12,502 bases of DNA from a virus (Duplodnaviria > Heunggongvirae > Uroviricota > Caudoviricetes): IMG/VR virus record IMGVR_UViG_2541047430_000021; one strand, given 5' to 3'. The notes under the pieces were generated by a model that was not told where the DNA came from, made no database searches, and worked only from the letters and a program-made list of their open reading frames with translations. This document shows, piece by piece, positions 2,134-12,470 of the stretch. Within the stretch, counting starts at the first letter, position 1. Each line of letters begins with the position of its first letter. The translations under genes and the position numbers were made by a program.

Positions 2134-2289
2134 TTACTCCTCAGGTTCGTAAGCTGTGAAGACAGCGACCTCCGTCTGGCCGGTTCGGATTCGTACCTCG
2201 CAGAGGTCTTTCCTCGTTACCAGTGCCGTCACTATGACGGTAATACAGATGACGATCAGGGCGATTAACATCGCCTTTTGCTGCTTCAT
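2134..2289 (-). CDS. hok: Hok-family type I toxin (51 aa membrane peptide)
   Basis: Translation MKQQKAMLIALIVICITVIVTALVTRKDLCEVRIRTGQTEVAVFTAYEPEE is near-identical to HokD/RelF as I recall it. AGGAG SD 9 nt upstream of ATG at 2289-2287. An in-frame upstream ATG at 2346 with its own GAGG SD could be a mok-like start. Confidence 0.9.
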   Translation of the reverse strand: MKQQKAMLIALIVICITVIVTALVTRKDLCEVRIRTGQTEVAVFTAYEPEE

Positions 2290-2338
2290 AGCCTGCTTCT
2301 CCTTGCCTTTCGGCGCGTAAGAGGCTAACCTACATGTG

Positions 2339-2410
2339 TCTAGCATGAAATTGGCCTCAGATTAATGTTAGGCGTCTTGCAGGACGCGTAATGTTAACTG
2401 GGGCTTTTCT
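2339..2410 (+). ncRNA. putative Sok-like antisense RNA (hypothesis)
   Basis: Plus-strand region antisense to the SD and ATG at 2346-2362. Candidate promoter TTGCCT(2304-2309)-17 nt-TAACCT(2327-2332). Hairpins at 2372-2387 (GCGTC-TTGCAG-GACGC) and CCUCAG...CUGGGG, followed by a U-rich tail CUUUUCUCU. Boundaries are inferred, not measured. Confidence 0.3.
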
Positions 2411-2464
2411 CTGTCTGCCTTACGGTGGCATGCCCGAGGCAGACAGCCTCAAGCACCCGCAGCA

Positions 2465-7547: not shown

Positions 7548-7739
7548 ATGAATAGAGCCCTTTCACCAATGGTTTCTGAATTTGAAACCATTGAACAAGA
7601 AAACAGTTACAACGAATGGCTGCGTGCGAAAGTAGCAACGAGCCTTGCAGATCCGCGCCCAGCAATTCCCCATGACGAAGTTGAGCGCAGAATGGCAGAA
7701 CGCTTTGCTAAGATGCGCAAGGAACGGAGCAAGCAGTAA
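7548..7739 (+). CDS. paaA2: ParE-associated antitoxin (PaaA2-like, 63 aa)
   Basis: GGAGG SD 5 nt before ATG 7548; 63-aa product directly upstream of the ParE toxin gene (1-nt gap). Length and arrangement match my recollection of the three-component paaR2-paaA2-parE2 system; the symbol is assigned from memory. Confidence 0.7.
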   Translation: MNRALSPMVSEFETIEQENSYNEWLRAKVATSLADPRPAIPHDEVERRMAERFAKMRKERSKQ

Positions 7740-7740
7740 A

Positions 7741-8019
7741 ATGTTACCCGTGTTATGGCTTGAAAGCGCAGATACCGACCTAGATGATATAACTAGTTAT
7801 ATTGCTCGTTTCGACATAGATGCGGCTGAACGCTTATGGCAGCGATTAAGGGGTTGTGTGCTGCCGTTATCCGAACATCCGTATTTATACCCACCAAGCG
7901 ACAGAGTACCTGGCTTGCGTGAGATTGTAGCCCACCCTAACTATATAATTCTATACCGCGTAACAACATCAAGCGTTGAAGTAGTAAACGTGATCCACGC
8001 AAGACGCCAGTTTCCCTAA
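7741..8019 (+). CDS. parE2: ParE/RelE-superfamily toxin (92 aa)
   Basis: Translation MLPVLWLESADTDLDDITSYIARFDIDAAERLWQRLRGCVLPLSEHPYLYPPSDRVPGLREIVAHPNYIILYRVTTSSVEVVNVIHARRQFP shows the ParE/RelE pattern (PG-RE-V--P-YIILYRV----V-V--V-HARR). Confidence 0.85.
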   Translation: MLPVLWLESADTDLDDITSYIARFDIDAAERLWQRLRGCVLPLSEHPYLYPPSDRVPGLREIVAHPNYIILYRVTTSSVEVVNVIHARRQFP

Positions 8020-8449: not shown

Positions 8450-8650
8450 TTACTTCAGAAAGTCTCTGGTGAGTGCACCGAAGATATTGTCAACGATTTC
8501 GTCATCGAACTGCGAGGACTCATCTTCAGTTACAAGGTGACCACAATTTTTGCAGATGGCTCCCGCGAAACTGTCAGAGCCCTGCGGCTTAAAGGATGTG
8601 TCAAAGACTTCGCCACCACATTCTGGGCAAGAAAACTTGATTGTATTCAT
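8450..8650 (-). CDS. small zinc-ribbon protein (66 aa)
   Basis: ATG at 8650 with GAGGA SD 8 nt upstream; MNTIKFSCPECGGEVFDTSFKPQGSDSFAGAICKNCGHLV... carries two CxxC pairs. Oriented opposite to the surrounding early-left genes. Confidence 0.55.
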   Translation of the reverse strand: MNTIKFSCPECGGEVFDTSFKPQGSDSFAGAICKNCGHLVTEDESSQFDDEIVDNIFGALTRDFLK

Positions 8651-8742
8651 AACCAATTTCCTCTCGAGTAACAGACCCCTCAGAGGATACCACCTCGCCT
8701 GACGTGGTTAAAAGCAGGCAACGCTAACCACAAGGAGCCGAC

Positions 8743-8961: not shown

Positions 8962-9317
8962 TAGCTAACCAACGAAGCTAAGGTTGGTAATTAAGGAGTT
9001 CTCCACGGGTGAGGTGGAGTGCGTGCGCCGGACACGGGTGAGCATACGGCACTGACAGTTTACTGAAAGGATATTTCCCTGAAAAGTCAGACCATAACGC
9101 GAAAGCGCACGGCGAGGTAGCTGGTTCATAGATAGCCTGTCGTTAAATTTTCGTCGACCGTGCGCTTCCGGTTGTGGCAATCCGCGAAATGGCGCGGCGG
9201 TAAGTATGGAGGGGTTATTCCTTCCCCCGTTGAGGACACCGGGTTGTCAGGTTGACCATACGCTTAAGTGACAACCCCGCTGCAACGCCCTCTGTTATCA
9301 ATTTTCTGGTGACGTTT

Positions 9318-9360
9318 GGCGGTATCAGTTTTACTCCGTGACTGCTCTGCCGCCCTTTTT
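9318..9360 (+). terminator. terminator-like hairpin plus T5 run (tL-like), weak
   Basis: GGCGG (9318-9322) ... CCGCC (9350-9354) with inner CAG/CTG pairing, followed by TTTTT (9356-9360). The loop is long, so efficiency is uncertain. Confidence 0.3.
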
Positions 9361-9364
9361 AAAG

Positions 9365-9512
9365 TGAATTTTGTGATGCGGTGAATGCGGCTGAGCGCAC
9401 GCGGAACAGTTAAAACCAAAAACAGTGTTATGGGGGGATTCTCTGTATCCGGCGTTAATTGTTAACTGGTTAACGTCACCTGGAGGCACCAGGCACCGCA
9501 TCACAAAATTCA
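9365..9512. repeat. 19-bp perfect inverted repeat flanking a 110-bp spacer
   Basis: TGAATTTTGTGATGCGGTG (9365-9383) is the exact reverse complement of CACCGCATCACAAAATTCA (9494-9512). The spacer contains GTTAACTGGTTAAC. Confidence 0.8.
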
Positions 9513-9529
9513 TTGTTGAGGACGCGATA

Positions 9530-9718
9530 ATGGAAACGTTATTACCAAACGTTAATACGTCTGAAGGTTGTTTTGAAATTGGTGTCACTATCAGTAACCC
9601 TGTATTTACTGAAGATGCCATTAACAAGAGAAAACACGAACGGGAGCTATTAAATAAAATATGCATTCTTTCAATGCTGGCCCGTTTACGTCCGATACAA
9701 AAAGGATGCTGGCAATGA
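9530..9718 (+). CDS. hypothetical early-left protein (62 aa)
   Basis: GAGGA SD 7 nt before ATG 9530; stop TGA 9716-9718 overlaps the next start (ATGA). Confidence 0.5.
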   Translation: METLLPNVNTSEGCFEIGVTISNPVFTEDAINKRKHERELLNKICILSMLARLRPIQKGCWQ

Positions 9719-9906
9719 ATACAGCATTTGCACTTGTTCTGACAGTTTTTCTTGTTTCCGGAGAGCCAGTTGATATTGCAGTCAGTGTTCACAGGACAAT
9801 GCAGGAGTGTGTGACTGCAGCAACCGAACAGAAAATTCCCGGTAACTGTTACCCGGTCGATAAAGTTATTCACCAGGATAATAACGAAATCCCGGCAGGT
9901 CTTTAA
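9715..9906 (+). CDS. hypothetical small protein (63 aa) with signal-peptide-like N-terminus
   Basis: ATG 9715 with AAGGA SD 8 nt upstream; MNTAFALVLTVFLVSGEPVD... has a hydrophobic N-terminus and two Cys in the mature part. Confidence 0.5.
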   Translation: MNTAFALVLTVFLVSGEPVDIAVSVHRTMQECVTAATEQKIPGNCYPVDKVIHQDNNEIPAGL

Positions 9907-9998
9907 AACAGTTCCGTAATAAACATCCGATTTCATTCTTATATGCCAGCAATGGCAGGGATTTGTTCACCCTTAAATCTGTAATGAGGTAAAACAAA

Positions 9999-12470
9999 AT
10001 GAGTAAAGTCTTTATTTGCGCCGCCATTCCGGACGAACAGGCAATAAAGGAAGAAGGTGCCGTCGCTGTAGCCACTGCCATTGAAGCCGGTGATGAACGT
10101 CGCGCCCGCGCAAAATTTCACTGGCAATTCCTGGAACATTATCCGGCTGCTCAGGACTGCGCTTATAAATTTCTTGTTTGCGAGGATAAACCCGGTATAC
10201 CCCGCCCTGCCCTCGATTCCTGGGATGCTGAATATATGCAGGAAAACCGCTGGGATGAGGCGTCTGCTTCCTTTGTCCCGGTCGAGACTGAATCCGATCC
10301 GATGAACGTCACTTTTGACAACCTGGCCCCTGAAGTACAGAACGCTGTCATGGTTAAGTTCGACACATGTGAAAACATCACTGTTGATATGGTGATTAGC
10401 GCACAGGAATTGTTGCAGGAAGACATGGCAACATTCGACGGCCATATCGTTGAAGCGTTGATGAAAATGCCAGAAGTTAACGCTATGTATCCGGAGCTTA
10501 AGCTGCATGCCATCGGGTGGGTTAAGCATAAATGTAAGCCTGGTGCCAAATGGCCCGAAATTCAGGCAGAGATGCGCATCTGGAAAAAACGTCGCGAAGG
10601 TGAACGCAAGGAAGCCGGAAAATACACGTCTGTTGTTGATCTCGCCCGCGCCAGAGCCAATCAACAGCACACTGAAAATTCAACAGGAAAAATCAACCCG
10701 GTCATTGCTGCCATTCATCGCGAATACAAGCAGACATGGAAAACACTGGATGACGAACTGGCCTACGCTCTCTGGCCTGGTGATGTGGATGCCGGAAACA
10801 TTGACGGCAGCATCCATCGCTGGGCAAAAAATGAAGTTATCGACAACGGCCGCGAAGACTGGAAGCGTATCTCGGCATCAATGCGCAAACAGCCTGATGC
10901 CCTTCGCTACGACCGCCAGACTATTTTTGGCCTTGTCCGTGAACGTCCGATCGACATTCACAAAGACCCTGTGGCACTGAACAAATACATTACTGAATAC
11001 CTGACTACAAAGGGCGTGTTTGAAGATGAAGGAACAAATCAGAGCGCAACTGACACTCTCTCGTCGCCAGTACCAGAAACTGATGCAGTGGAAACGGCAA
11101 TTCCGGACAACGAAAAAACCGAATGCAAAGTGGAAGTCGAACCATCTGTAGAGCGTGAGGGGCCGTTCTACTTCCTCTTCACCGACAAGGATGGCGAAAA
11201 ATACGGTCGCGCAAACAAACTTTCTGGTCTGGATAAGGCGCTGGCTGCCGGGGCTACTGAAATCACAAAAGAAGAATATTTTGCCCGAAAAAATGGCACA
11301 TACACAGGCTTACCGCAAAATGCAAATACCGCACAAAATTCTGAACAACCAGAACCGGTAAAAGTTACCGCTGACGAAGTAAAGAAAATTATGCAGGCAG
11401 CCAATATCAGCCAGCCTGACGCCGAGGAACTGCTTGCAGTATCACGTGGTGAATTTGTTGAAGGGATTAGCGACCCGAATGATCCGAAATGGGTTAAGGG
11501 GATCCAGACCCGCGATTCTGTGAACCAGAACCAGCAAGAAACGGAACAGAACGACCAGAAAGCGGAACAAAACAGCCCAAATACGCAACAAAACGAGCCA
11601 GAAACGAAACAACCTGAACCAGTAGTGCAACAGGAACCGGAAAAGATCTGCACCGCCTGCGGTCAGAGCGGTGGCGGCAACTGCCCTGATTGTGGTGCGG
11701 TGATGGGTGACGCAACATACCAGGAAATATTCGATGGAGAGAATCAGCCTGAAGTTCAGGAAAATGATCCGGAGGAAATGGAAGGTACTGCACATCAGCA
11801 CAAGGAGAACACTGGCGGCAATCAGCATCATGCCAGCGATAGTGAAACTGGCGAGGCGTCAGATCCCTTAATTAAGGCGAACGGTCATCATAATCTCACA
11901 TCCACCAGCAGAGCGGGGATTCATCTGATGATCGATCTTGAAACCATGGGAAAAAATCCCGATGCCCCGATTATCTCAATAGGTGCAATATTTTTCGATC
12001 CGCAAACCGGAGATATGGGACCGGAATTTAGTAAGACTATCGATCTGGATACTGCTGGCGGAGTCATTGATCGGGACACCATGAAATGGTGGCTTAAACA
12101 ATCACGCGAAGCGCAATCTGCCATTATGACCGATGAAATCCCGTTAGATGATGCACTGTTACAATTGCGGGAATTTATCGACGAAAACTCCGGTGAATTT
12201 TTTGTTCATGTCTGGGGAAATGGAGCCAACTTCGACAACACGATTTTGCGCCGTTCATACGAACGGCAGGGGAGCCCCTGCCCGTGGCGTTACTACAACG
12301 ATCGCGATGTACGCACAATCGTTGAGCTGGGGAAAGCCATAGACTTCGATGCCAGAACGGCTATTCCATTCGAAGGTGAGCGCCATAATGCACTTGATGA
12401 CGCCCGTTACCAGGCAAAATACGTTTCAGCTATCTGGCAAAAACTGATCCCGAGTCAGGCTGATTTTTAA
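9999..12470 (+). CDS. prophage exonuclease (RecE position) with C-terminal DEDDh/DnaQ-like 3'-5' exonuclease domain
   Basis: 823-aa ORF with GAGG SD. C-terminus has the three DEDDh motifs: IDLETMG, VWGNGANFDNTIL, HNALDDARYQAKY. Internal CTACGQSGGGNCPDCG zinc-ribbon-like motif and a Q/E/N-rich low-complexity linker. Confidence 0.85.
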   Translation: MSKVFICAAIPDEQAIKEEGAVAVATAIEAGDERRARAKFHWQFLEHYPAAQDCAYKFLVCEDKPGIPRPALDSWDAEYMQENRWDEASASFVPVETESDPMNVTFDNLAPEVQNAVMVKFDTCENITVDMVISAQELLQEDMATFDGHIVEALMKMPEVNAMYPELKLHAIGWVKHKCKPGAKWPEIQAEMRIWKKRREGERKEAGKYTSVVDLARARANQQHTENSTGKINPVIAAIHREYKQTWKTLDDELAYALWPGDVDAGNIDGSIHRWAKNEVIDNGREDWKRISASMRKQPDALRYDRQTIFGLVRERPIDIHKDPVALNKYITEYLTTKGVFEDEGTNQSATDTLSSPVPETDAVETAIPDNEKTECKVEVEPSVEREGPFYFLFTDKDGEKYGRANKLSGLDKALAAGATEITKEEYFARKNGTYTGLPQNANTAQNSEQPEPVKVTADEVKKIMQAANISQPDAEELLAVSRGEFVEGISDPNDPKWVKGIQTRDSVNQNQQETEQNDQKAEQNSPNTQQNEPETKQPEPVVQQEPEKICTACGQSGGGNCPDCGAVMGDATYQEIFDGENQPEVQENDPEEMEGTAHQHKENTGGNQHHASDSETGEASDPLIKANGHHNLTSTSRAGIHLMIDLETMGKNPDAPIISIGAIFFDPQTGDMGPEFSKTIDLDTAGGVIDRDTMKWWLKQSREAQSAIMTDEIPLDDALLQLREFIDENSGEFFVHVWGNGANFDNTILRRSYERQGSPCPWRYYNDRDVRTIVELGKAIDFDARTAIPFEGERHNALDDARYQAKYVSAIWQKLIPSQADF

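What the first reader, a model, noticed from the sequence alone, without database searches (positions are those of the whole stretch)
9999..12470. RecE-position exonuclease with a DEDDh C-terminal domain, internal zinc ribbon and Q/E/N-rich linker
The protein occupies the recombination-exonuclease position, but its C-terminal ~190 aa carry DnaQ-like DEDDh motifs (DLE..., FD..., H-x4-D) rather than a PD-(D/E)XK nuclease core, preceded by a CxxC-x10-CxxC ribbon and a low-complexity acidic/glutamine tract (about 11500-11640). That implies 3'-5' exonuclease chemistry at a locus usually annotated as exonuclease VIII.
Basis: partly seen in the sequence, partly recalled or inferred. Interest (0 to 1): 0.45.

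Follow-up and report, generated by a model that had tools for sequence, protein, structure and literature searches.

The report
Prophage RecE-like protein with 3'-5' exonuclease head
This is the intact form of the E. coli prophage gene ydfE: a RecE-like scaffold carrying a DnaQ/DexA-type 3'-5' exonuclease where RecE has its 5'-3' nuclease. It has no annealing-protein partner, is very common and already catalogued in databases, and its role has not been tested.

Summary
ORF 9999-12470 encodes 823 aa. Its last ~180 aa are a Pfam PF16473 (Rv2179c-like) DEDDh exonuclease domain (E 3.6e-66). The catalytic residues D646, E648, D746, H796 and D801 are conserved in homologues. The closest solved structure is the phage T4 DNA exonuclease DexA. 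No PD-(D/E)XK domain is present.

Residues 474-624 are 70-80% identical to the central region of Rac RecE. This block holds the Q/N/E tract and the zinc ribbon, which is CxxC-x7-CxxC, not x10. Similarity stops exactly where RecE's nuclease begins. Residues 1-256 are 96% identical to the K-12 pseudogene ydfE.

Across relatives the scaffolds and nuclease heads are shuffled. All 5 PD-(D/E)XK versions are followed by recT. None of 86 DEDDh versions is; those are followed by xis and int. So this is not a RecET-type recombinase.

The gene lies in about 65% of complete E. coli genomes. NCBI names it 'exonuclease' or "3'-5' exoribonuclease", Pfam has YdfE_N/YdfE_C families, and a 2025 paper noted DnaQ-type nucleases next to int in lambdoid phages.

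Its biological role (defence, DNA processing or RNA processing) is untested. Verdict: correct, already catalogued, moderate interest.

The parts
9999..12470 (+). Complete CDS, 823 aa: the intact ydfE-family gene (RecE-like scaffold plus DEDDh exonuclease).
   Evidence: It is 99.8% identical in DNA to E. coli O157:H7 WP_000048458.1 'exonuclease'. PHROG 2082 matches end to end.
9986..9989 (+). Shine-Dalgarno-like GAGG, 9 nt before the ATG.
   Evidence: Read directly from the sequence.
9999..10613 (+). N-terminal alpha/beta plus helical domain (aa 1-205, YdfE_N type). It is not the PF06630 domain of RecE.
   Evidence: AF2 pLDDT >95. 96% identical to the K-12 ydfE pseudogene over aa 1-256. Precomputed Pfam PF27430 YdfE_N in near-identical proteins. 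No structural relative found. dN/dS 0.16.
10731..11018 (+). Helical domain (aa 245-340), shared at low identity with RecE residues ~278-355.
   Evidence: AF2 pLDDT 91-98. BLASTP to RecE. phmmer module map.
11160..11294 (+). Small beta-hairpin/helix domain (aa 388-432).
   Evidence: AF2 pLDDT 93-97. dN/dS 0.08.
11418..11870 (+). Block that is 70-80% identical to Rac RecE residues ~454-590 (aa 474-624).
   Evidence: partial NF007259 match, aa 452-626.
11511..11639 (+). Q/N/E-rich low-complexity linker (aa 505-547), predicted disordered.
   Evidence: pLDDT <50. dN/dS 0.35.
11649..11693 (+). Zinc ribbon CTAC-x7-CPDC (C551, C554, C562, C565).
   Evidence: Conserved in both RecE variants. Present in only 5 of 47 long family representatives. 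dN/dS 0.10.
11709..11912 (+). Acidic and His-rich disordered linker (aa 571-638). It includes the mosaic joint: RecE homology ends near 11873, and homology to stand-alone exonucleases starts at 11925.
   Evidence: dN/dS 0.74.
11922..12437 (+). DEDDh 3'-5' exonuclease domain (aa 642-813), Pfam PF16473, T4 DexA-like.
11934..11942 (+). Motif I codons: D646, L647, E648.
12234..12236 (+). Motif II codon: D746.
12384..12401 (+). Motif III: H796-x4-D801.
   Evidence: Both residues are invariant in 139 homologues.
9304..9906 (+). Upstream genes on the same strand, with no promoter-like site between them and the CDS: DicF sRNA (9304-9355), dicB (9530-9718) and ydfD/DUF1482 (9715-9906). The order is the same as in the K-12 Qin dicB region.

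Best explanation
The gene is the intact version of ydfE, which survives in E. coli K-12 only as an IS2-truncated pseudogene in the Qin prophage. It is the last long gene before xis-int. It lies on the same strand as DicF, dicB and ydfD, in the position of the early-left operon of a Qin/CP-933P-type lambdoid prophage. The protein is a mosaic. It has three small folded N-terminal domains of unknown function, then long disordered linkers and a zinc ribbon shared with Rac RecE, then a DEDDh (DnaQ-superfamily, T4 DexA/Rv2179c-like) domain in the place of RecE's PD-(D/E)XK 5'-3' nuclease. Shown here: the domain identity, the catalytic residues, the fold, the mosaic boundaries, purifying selection on every folded part, and the absence of an adjacent annealing protein. 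Inferred: it removes nucleotides from 3' ends by two-metal catalysis. The substrate is more probably DNA than RNA, because its only solved sequence relative is the DNA exonuclease DexA. It works alone rather than as half of a RecE/RecT-type recombinase. The RecE-type scaffold would tether or target the nuclease. My best guess for its role is a conflict nuclease. It would act on 3'-ended DNA of competing phages (as reported for the DexA homologue EcD) or on host or defence-derived DNA, not in strand-annealing recombination.
For: Domain, residues and fold: (profile against the PDB finds only T4 DexA, E 1.2e-14). Mosaic with RecE. ydfE identity: (PF27430 YdfE_N, PF27432 YdfE_C). No annealing partner: in 86 DEDDh-ended loci there is no RecT. 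In 75 of them the integrase ORF starts 220-424 nt downstream, which leaves room for xis only. All 5 PD-(D/E)XK-ended relatives overlap a RecT gene. Selection: dN/dS is 0.08-0.30 in folded parts and 0.57-0.74 in the two most relaxed linkers. The ORF is intact in most loci. [quoted passage not shown] DexA homologues are common in Escherichia, Citrobacter and Klebsiella, and one of them, EcD, digests 5hmC T4 DNA and protects cells (PMC12153337). The motif (F/Y)(W/Y)N(D/Q)RD(V/I)RT is shared with DexA around its W152.
Against: No activity, polarity or substrate was measured. Pfam names the domain an exoribonuclease, and the structural neighbours RNase T and Orn act on RNA. I could not confirm that EcD belongs to this subfamily. 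The query has Y766 where DexA has W152, and DexA D169 could not be mapped. The gene has no promoter-like site of its own. It sits behind dicB, in what in K-12 Qin is the repressed dicB operon (operon status from my own knowledge), which fits poorly with a defence expressed in the lysogen. The context sample is dominated by closely related E. coli prophages, so the 86 loci are far from independent. Only RecT was searched for in all loci; for other annealing-protein families I relied on the annotation of two records.
Confidence: 0.75

Rival explanations
1. It is a recombination nuclease after all: a RecE analogue that processes DNA ends for host RecA/RecBCD or for a distant annealing protein, using 3'-5' instead of 5'-3' resection.
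For: It shares the RecE central block and the RecE gene position. Some lambdoid Rec modules do contain DnaQ-type nucleases packed among recombination genes (PMC12315714). RusA is encoded elsewhere in the prophage.
Against: None of 86 DEDDh-ended loci has RecT, whereas 5 of 5 PD-(D/E)XK-ended loci do. No annealing protein is annotated between repressor and int. 3' exonucleases usually inhibit recombination, as the same paper notes. The window holds 4 Chi sites against 0.41 expected, which fits the 'no Rec module, uses RecBCD' class of lambdoid phages.
Confidence: 0.12
2. It is a prophage-borne anti-phage defence nuclease. It would be either HREX-like (degrading modified DNA of T-even phages) or TONDO-like (a DEDDh exonuclease with an auxiliary domain that trims RNA-phage 3' ends).
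For: EcD, an E. coli DexA homologue, protects against T4 (PMC12153337). DEDDh exonucleases with auxiliary domains from prophages and plasmids defend against MS2 and Qbeta (preprint PMC13344964). The gene stays intact and under purifying selection in many prophages, including defective ones.
Against: PADLOC gives only a generic Cas-associated DEDDh match at E 3e-5. There is no promoter of its own, and it occupies an early-left, normally repressed position. The sequences of EcD and the TONDOs were not available for comparison.
Confidence: 0.25
3. It is an exoribonuclease, as the Pfam and NCBI names say. It would trim or degrade RNA: phage or host transcripts, small RNAs, nanoRNAs or nucleotide signals.
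For: The PF16473 founder Rv2179c is a 3'-5' exoribonuclease (my own knowledge: Abendroth et al., J Biol Chem 2014). RNase T, Orn, REXO2 and 3'hExo are close structural neighbours.
Against: By sequence and by fold the nearest solved protein is the DNA exonuclease DexA, and a family profile finds nothing else in the PDB. Many DEDDh enzymes cut both DNA and RNA, so the name is not evidence.
Confidence: 0.2
4. It is a decaying remnant with no current function, a by-product of illegitimate recombination between a recE gene and a stand-alone exonuclease gene.
For: K-12 carries only a truncated copy. A few loci have frameshifts (L015, L031, L032, L034, L046). The joint falls in a disordered linker.
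Against: dN/dS is well below 1 in every folded domain. The catalytic residues are conserved. The full-length ORF is intact in most of about 80 loci, and at least 80% of the gene is present in 3534 of 5426 complete genomes.
Confidence: 0.05

Closest known systems
RecE (exonuclease VIII) of the Rac prophage
   Same: Same position in the prophage: the last large gene of the early-left operon before xis/int. Residues 474-624 are 70-80% identical to RecE ~454-590, including the Q/N/E linker, the CxxC-x7-CxxC ribbon and the acidic/His tract. The helical domain aa 245-340 is weakly similar to RecE 278-355.
   Different: No PF12684 PD-(D/E)XK nuclease and no PF06630 N-terminal domain. It scores 273.8 bits against the NCBIfam equivalog cut-off of 1269. 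No RecT follows. The expected polarity is opposite.
Phage T4 DexA (exonuclease A; PDB 8kel/8ken) and its bacterial homologue EcD ('HREX')
   Same: DexA is the only solved sequence relative of the C-terminal domain (profile E 1.2e-14) and the best structural match. All DEDDh residues and the motif around DexA W152 are shared.
   Different: DexA (227 aa) is a stand-alone protein, and EcD appears to be one too (the paper places its DexA-D90 equivalent at residue 78). Here the domain is the C-terminal head of an 823-aa multidomain protein. Y766 replaces W152. Identity is only about 20%. Specificity for modified DNA is untested.
Stand-alone Rv2179c-like exonucleases of enterobacterial prophages (for example ST64B Sb30 and PhiR55_1 'exodeoxyribonuclease VIII')
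   Same: 57-87% identical to aa 643-823. They are also encoded immediately upstream of xis/int.
   Different: They lack the whole 640-aa scaffold.
K-12 ydfE (b1577, Qin prophage pseudogene); Pfam YdfE_N and YdfE_C
   Same: 96% identical over aa 1-256, with the same upstream genes ydfC, dicF, dicB and ydfD.
   Different: The K-12 copy is cut by IS2 after codon 256 and has lost everything downstream, including the exonuclease.
'RecE-2' proteins and DnaQ-type nucleases of lambdoid phages (Zheng et al., Genome Res 2025, PMC12315714)
   Same: That survey reports DnaQ-like 3'-5' nucleases in or beside lambdoid early-left operons, often next to int. It also reports RecE-related proteins without a nuclease domain. 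Both kinds appear among this protein's relatives.
   Different: The text I could read treats the two as separate items. It does not describe the fusion of a RecE/YdfE scaffold to a DnaQ-type head. Its supplementary tables were not available.

Membership tests
RecE / exodeoxyribonuclease VIII (NCBIfam NF007259; Pfam PF06630 + PF12684) | C-terminal PD-(D/E)XK nuclease domain (PF12684/DUF3799) | tested here: not met
   No hit in the query. The same scan finds it in both RecE controls.
RecE / exodeoxyribonuclease VIII (NCBIfam NF007259; Pfam PF06630 + PF12684) | Whole-protein score above the equivalog cut-off (1269 bits) | tested here: not met
   273.8 bits. The best matched stretch covers only aa 452-626.
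RecE / exodeoxyribonuclease VIII (NCBIfam NF007259; Pfam PF06630 + PF12684) | N-terminal Exonuc_VIII domain (PF06630) | tested here: not met
   Absent from the query. Present in RecE and in relative P0248.
RecE / exodeoxyribonuclease VIII (NCBIfam NF007259; Pfam PF06630 + PF12684) | Adjacent, translationally coupled recT | tested here: not met
   The window ends 32 nt after the stop codon. In near-identical loci xis and int follow. 0 of 86 DEDDh-ended loci have RecT, against 5 of 5 PD-(D/E)XK-ended loci.
RecE / exodeoxyribonuclease VIII (NCBIfam NF007259; Pfam PF06630 + PF12684) | Central linker/zinc-ribbon region | tested here: met
   70-80% identity to RecE ~454-590.
DEDDh (DnaQ-like) exonucleases, Pfam PF16473 Rv2179c-like | Score above the Pfam gathering threshold | tested here: met
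   222.7 bits against 27, profile positions 2-177 of 177.
DEDDh (DnaQ-like) exonucleases, Pfam PF16473 Rv2179c-like | Four acidic residues plus His in three motifs (DxE, D, Hx4D) | tested here: met
   D646, E648, D746, H796 and D801, conserved in 134-139 of 139 homologues.
DEDDh (DnaQ-like) exonucleases, Pfam PF16473 Rv2179c-like | RNase H-like DnaQ fold | tested here: met
   AF2 pLDDT about 90. Foldseek probability 1.00 to DexA, RNase T, Orn, Cap18 and 3'hExo.
DEDDh (DnaQ-like) exonucleases, Pfam PF16473 Rv2179c-like | Mg-dependent 3'-5' exonuclease activity | not testable with these tools
   Needs a biochemical assay.
T4 DexA / HREX (EcD) exonucleases | Sequence relationship to DexA | tested here: met
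   phmmer E 2.3e-5 and family profile E 1.2e-14. DexA is the only PDB relative found.
T4 DexA / HREX (EcD) exonucleases | Residues reported for 5hmC recognition (DexA W152, D169) | tested here: inconclusive
   W152 aligns with Y766, where the family consensus is W. D169 lies beyond the alignable part.
T4 DexA / HREX (EcD) exonucleases | Selective digestion of modified phage DNA and protection from T4 | not testable with these tools
   The EcD sequence (HAK9828821.1) was not retrievable. Needs an assay.
YdfE family (Pfam PF27430 YdfE_N, PF27432 YdfE_C) | Matches to both Pfam families | tested here: met
   Precomputed hits in proteins 91-96% identical to the query over aa 1-470. These families are missing from the local Pfam copy, so the query itself could not be scored.
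YdfE family (Pfam PF27430 YdfE_N, PF27432 YdfE_C) | Orthology with K-12 ydfE | tested here: met
   96% identity over 256 aa and the same gene neighbourhood.
TONDO defence exonucleases (preprint PMC13344964) | ISG20-like DEDDh domain plus auxiliary domain conferring defence against RNA phages | not tested
   The architecture is analogous, but no TONDO sequences were available.

The most novel reading that the evidence does not exclude
The RecE/YdfE N-terminal region is a general targeting platform on which enterobacterial prophages mount interchangeable heads. The heads are a 5'-3' PD-(D/E)XK nuclease (always with RecT), a 3'-5' DEDDh nuclease (never with RecT), or no recognisable nuclease. The DEDDh form, present in about two thirds of E. 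coli genomes, would then be an uncharacterised stand-alone conflict nuclease. It would work in defence against modified-DNA or RNA phages, or in counter-defence, and not in recombination. Studying it could also reveal what the long-unexplained N-terminal 600 residues of RecE do.
Probability: 0.25. Interest if true: 0.6.

Novelty: already known. Interest (0 to 1): 0.3.

Why it matters
The label 'exodeoxyribonuclease VIII' on these genes is wrong in chemistry and probably in biology. Correcting it matters for annotating E. coli, Shigella and STEC prophages, where the gene occurs in most genomes, often in several copies.

The module-swap pattern is a testable lead to two open questions. One is what the N-terminal ~600 residues of RecE do. 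They are dispensable for nuclease activity, but from my own knowledge they affect linear-linear recombination (Fu et al. 2012). The other is what a 3'-5' exonuclease is for at the int-proximal end of lambdoid early operons.

If the DEDDh head behaves like the reported DexA homologue EcD, a very widespread prophage gene would be a defence factor.

Tried and rejected
- **Defence-system models.** PADLOC gave only a generic Cas-associated DEDDh match.
- **EcD identity.** I tried to tie EcD (HAK9828821.1) to this subfamily by listing cluster members.
- **Supplementary tables.** Those of the two most relevant papers are not held.
- **Locus search.** The narrower A5 worked, but the viral set it returned is highly redundant.
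- **Wasted literature search.** One search was lost because 'RecE' matched 'receptor'.
- **Rv2179c.** It was not found in the PDB sequence searches, neither with the single protein at E <= 0.01 nor with the family profile at E <= 1, so I cannot rank it against DexA.
- **Own promoter or terminator.** I considered an own promoter or an internal terminator and rejected it: there are no plus-strand promoter-like sites, and terminator-like hits are at chance level.
- **Zinc ribbon as family hallmark.** Rejected: only 5 of 47 long representatives carry it.
Full report
**The observation**

Window 9999-12470 (+) is a single 823-codon ORF with a GAGG 9 nt before its ATG. Pfam assigns aa 642-813 to PF16473, the 'Rv2179c-like 3'-5' exoribonuclease' domain. 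The match has E 3.6e-66 and 222.7 bits against a cut-off of 27, and covers profile positions 2-177 of 177. There is a weak RNase_T match and no PD-(D/E)XK family.

- MIDLETMG carries D646 and E648.
- NFDN carries D746.
- HNALDD carries H796 and D801.

In 139 non-identical homologous domains (52-99% identity) these five residues are kept in 134, 134, 135, 139 and 139 sequences.

A full-length AlphaFold2 model gives the domain pLDDT of about 90. Its best PDB matches by Foldseek are all DEDDh enzymes, led by phage T4 DexA (8kel, E 9e-9) and followed by RNase T, Orn, Cap18 and 3'hExo.

The Q/N/E-rich tract is at aa 505-547 (nt 11511-11639). A four-cysteine ribbon follows at nt 11649-11693. Its spacing is CxxC-x7-CxxC, not x10.

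**What the rest of the protein is**

The NCBIfam equivalog for exonuclease VIII matches only partially. Its best stretch covers aa 452-626, and the score is 273.8 bits against a cut-off of 1269.

Direct comparison with two Rac-type RecE proteins shows 70-80% identity over query aa 474-624 against RecE ~454-590. This block includes the low-complexity linker, the ribbon and the acidic/His-rich tail. A weaker match covers a helical domain, query aa 262-336 against RecE 278-352.

Similarity stops where RecE's PF12684 PD-(D/E)XK domain begins. At the DNA level RecE homology ends near nt 11873. Homology to stand-alone prophage exonucleases such as ST64B Sb30 begins at nt 11925, which is the start of their reading frames.

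The N-terminal 256 residues are 96% identical to the K-12 pseudogene ydfE (b1577), which IS2 cuts at that point. K-12 has the same upstream genes: ydfC, DicF, dicB and ydfD. Newer Pfam releases have families YdfE_N (PF27430) and YdfE_C (PF27432) that cover near-identical proteins.

**Where it sits**

The window is 99.8% identical to a prophage at the ynfA (Qin/CP-933P) site of E. coli O157:H7. There the gene is annotated 'exonuclease' and is followed by an excisionase and an integrase. The inducible phage mEp460_ev081 (97.9% identical) has the same order, as does vB_EcoS-640R1.

I found no plus-strand promoter-like site in front of the gene. It is on the same strand as DicF, dicB and ydfD, in the position of the early-left operon.

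At least 80% of the gene is present in 3534 of 5426 complete E. coli genomes. Genomes that have any match carry a median of two matching places.

**Module shuffling, and the link between head type and RecT**

A search of 1.84 billion representative proteins with aa 1-640 found only 245 clusters, so the scaffold family is narrow. I mapped modules onto the long representatives with phmmer and Pfam. The mapping shows free recombination of parts:
- P0248 has the genuine RecE N-terminus (PF06630) plus the DEDDh head.
- P0252, P0315 and P0343 have the YdfE-type N-terminus plus a PD-(D/E)XK head.
- About ten others have the scaffold but no recognisable nuclease.

I then collected 104 loci and classified them in Python:

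| Head type | Loci | With RecT | Downstream |
|---|---|---|---|
| DEDDh | 86 | 0 | In 75, the integrase ORF starts 220-424 nt downstream (room for xis only) |
| PD-(D/E)XK | 5 | 5 | An overlapping RecT gene (PF03837 confirmed for one) |
| Nuclease-less or truncated | 13 | 0 | Integrase ORF starts 440-1914 nt downstream in 9 |

A Rac-like prophage (L006) makes the point clearly. It has kilR, ydaE, then a RecE N-terminus fused to the DEDDh head, then xis and int, with recT gone.

Two caveats apply. The E. coli loci are closely related, so they are not 86 independent events. Only RecT was searched for systematically. For other annealing-protein families I rely on the annotation of two records.

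**Selection**

I compared the query with 51 alleles more than 3% diverged:

| Region | dN/dS |
|---|---|
| N1 (aa 1-235) | 0.16 |
| Helical domain (aa 236-345) | 0.28 |
| Beta domain (aa 385-436) | 0.08 |
| Zinc ribbon (aa 548-570) | 0.10 |
| DEDDh head (aa 639-823) | 0.30 |
| Two most relaxed linkers (aa 346-384, 571-638) | 0.57 and 0.74 |

The pairs share the query and so are not independent. Even so, the pattern argues that the whole multidomain protein is maintained, and against a decaying remnant.

**How it most likely works**

The established part is this: a DEDDh active site, complete and conserved, sits on a flexible tether behind a RecE-type scaffold.

The rest is inferred. Catalysis would be two-metal 3'-5' exonucleolysis. 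DNA is a more likely substrate than RNA, because DexA, a DNA exonuclease, is the only solved protein that either the single sequence (E 2.3e-5) or a family profile (E 1.2e-14) can find. The family also shares with DexA the motif (F/Y)(W/Y)N(D/Q)RD(V/I)RT around DexA W152.

It never travels with RecT, and 3' exonucleases generally oppose recombination (PMC12315714). I therefore do not think it is a RecE substitute. The window has 4 Chi sites where 0.41 are expected. That resembles the lambdoid phages which lack Rec modules and lean on RecBCD, as described in the same paper.

My preferred role is a conflict nuclease. Two reports make this plausible:
- Kang et al. (NAR 2025, PMC12153337) report that DexA homologues are abundant in Escherichia, Citrobacter and Klebsiella. 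One of them, EcD, digests 5hmC-containing T4 DNA and protects cells.
- A 2026 preprint (PMC13344964) reports prophage and plasmid DEDDh exonucleases with auxiliary domains that block RNA phages.

Neither link could be verified by sequence here. The gene's position in an operon that is normally repressed in the lysogen counts against a constitutive defence.

**Comparison with what is known, and novelty**

The protein fails the membership tests for RecE: nuclease domain, N-terminal domain, equivalog score and RecT partner. It passes those for PF16473/DEDDh and for YdfE.

Databases already reflect this:
- NCBI names near-identical proteins 'exonuclease' or "3'-5' exoribonuclease".
- PHROG 2082 is 'exonuclease'.
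- Pfam has YdfE_N and YdfE_C families.

Zheng et al. (Genome Res 2025) already noted DnaQ-type nucleases beside int in lambdoid phages, and RecE-related proteins without a nuclease. The old label 'exodeoxyribonuclease VIII' nevertheless persists in many GenBank phage records, even for 190-aa stand-alone DEDDh proteins.

I therefore rate the finding as correct but already known as an object. The function is untested. The strict pairing of head type with RecT is a modest new observation that is worth an experiment.

Noticed in passing
window 11902-11909 (- strand): A Chi site (GCTGGTGG) lies inside the ~50-nt joint between the end of RecE homology (~11873) and the start of stand-alone-exonuclease homology (11925). 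The related fusion in L006 has a mismatch there. This may be coincidence.
   Followed up: partly
window 996, 1048 (+), 6492, 11902 (-): There are four Chi sites in 12.5 kb against 0.41 expected from shuffles. This is roughly E. coli chromosomal density and unlike lambda. It fits the 'no Rec module, Chi-rich' class of lambdoid phages described in PMC12315714.
   Followed up: partly
window 9304-9355 (+): DicF small RNA (Rfam RF00039, 76.7 bits) lies upstream of dicB (9530-9718) and ydfD/DUF1482 (9715-9906). The order is the same as in the K-12 Qin dicB region.
   Followed up: yes
window 2284-2458 (-): A Sok antitoxin RNA (RF01794, 116.9 bits) forms a hok/sok-type module. hokD is annotated at the matching place in O157:H7.
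   Followed up: no
window ~7548-8019 (+): A RelB/RelE(ParE)-type toxin-antitoxin pair sits between the repressor region and ydfC, going by the annotation of the near-identical O157:H7 locus (L001 9550-10021).
   Followed up: no
window 8450-8656 (-): A small ORF has two CxxC pairs (CPECG ... CKNCG). In O157:H7 it is annotated 'ECs_2282 family putative zinc-binding protein', and it lies antisense to the early-left direction.
   Followed up: no
L009, L010, L016-L023; proteins P0245, P0250, P0254, P0258, P0274, P0286, P0302, P0308: These relatives have the YdfE/RecE scaffold but a 250-330 aa C-terminal region with no Pfam match and no nuclease signature. One has a weak Ead/Ea22-like hit. They may correspond to the 'RecE-2' proteins of Zheng et al. 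2025. Their C-termini could be a third kind of head.
   Followed up: partly
L105 5079-5999 (E. coli K-12 ydfE, b1577): The K-12 'ydfE' pseudogene is the first 256 codons of this gene, truncated by IS2E. K-12 has therefore lost the exonuclease head, while most other E. coli keep it.
   Followed up: yes
L107 4495-5067 (phage PhiR55_1); L106 3172-5613 (phage vB_EcoS-640R1): GenBank phage records annotate both a 190-aa stand-alone DEDDh protein and the 813-aa fusion as 'exodeoxyribonuclease VIII'. This is a propagated misannotation.
   Followed up: yes
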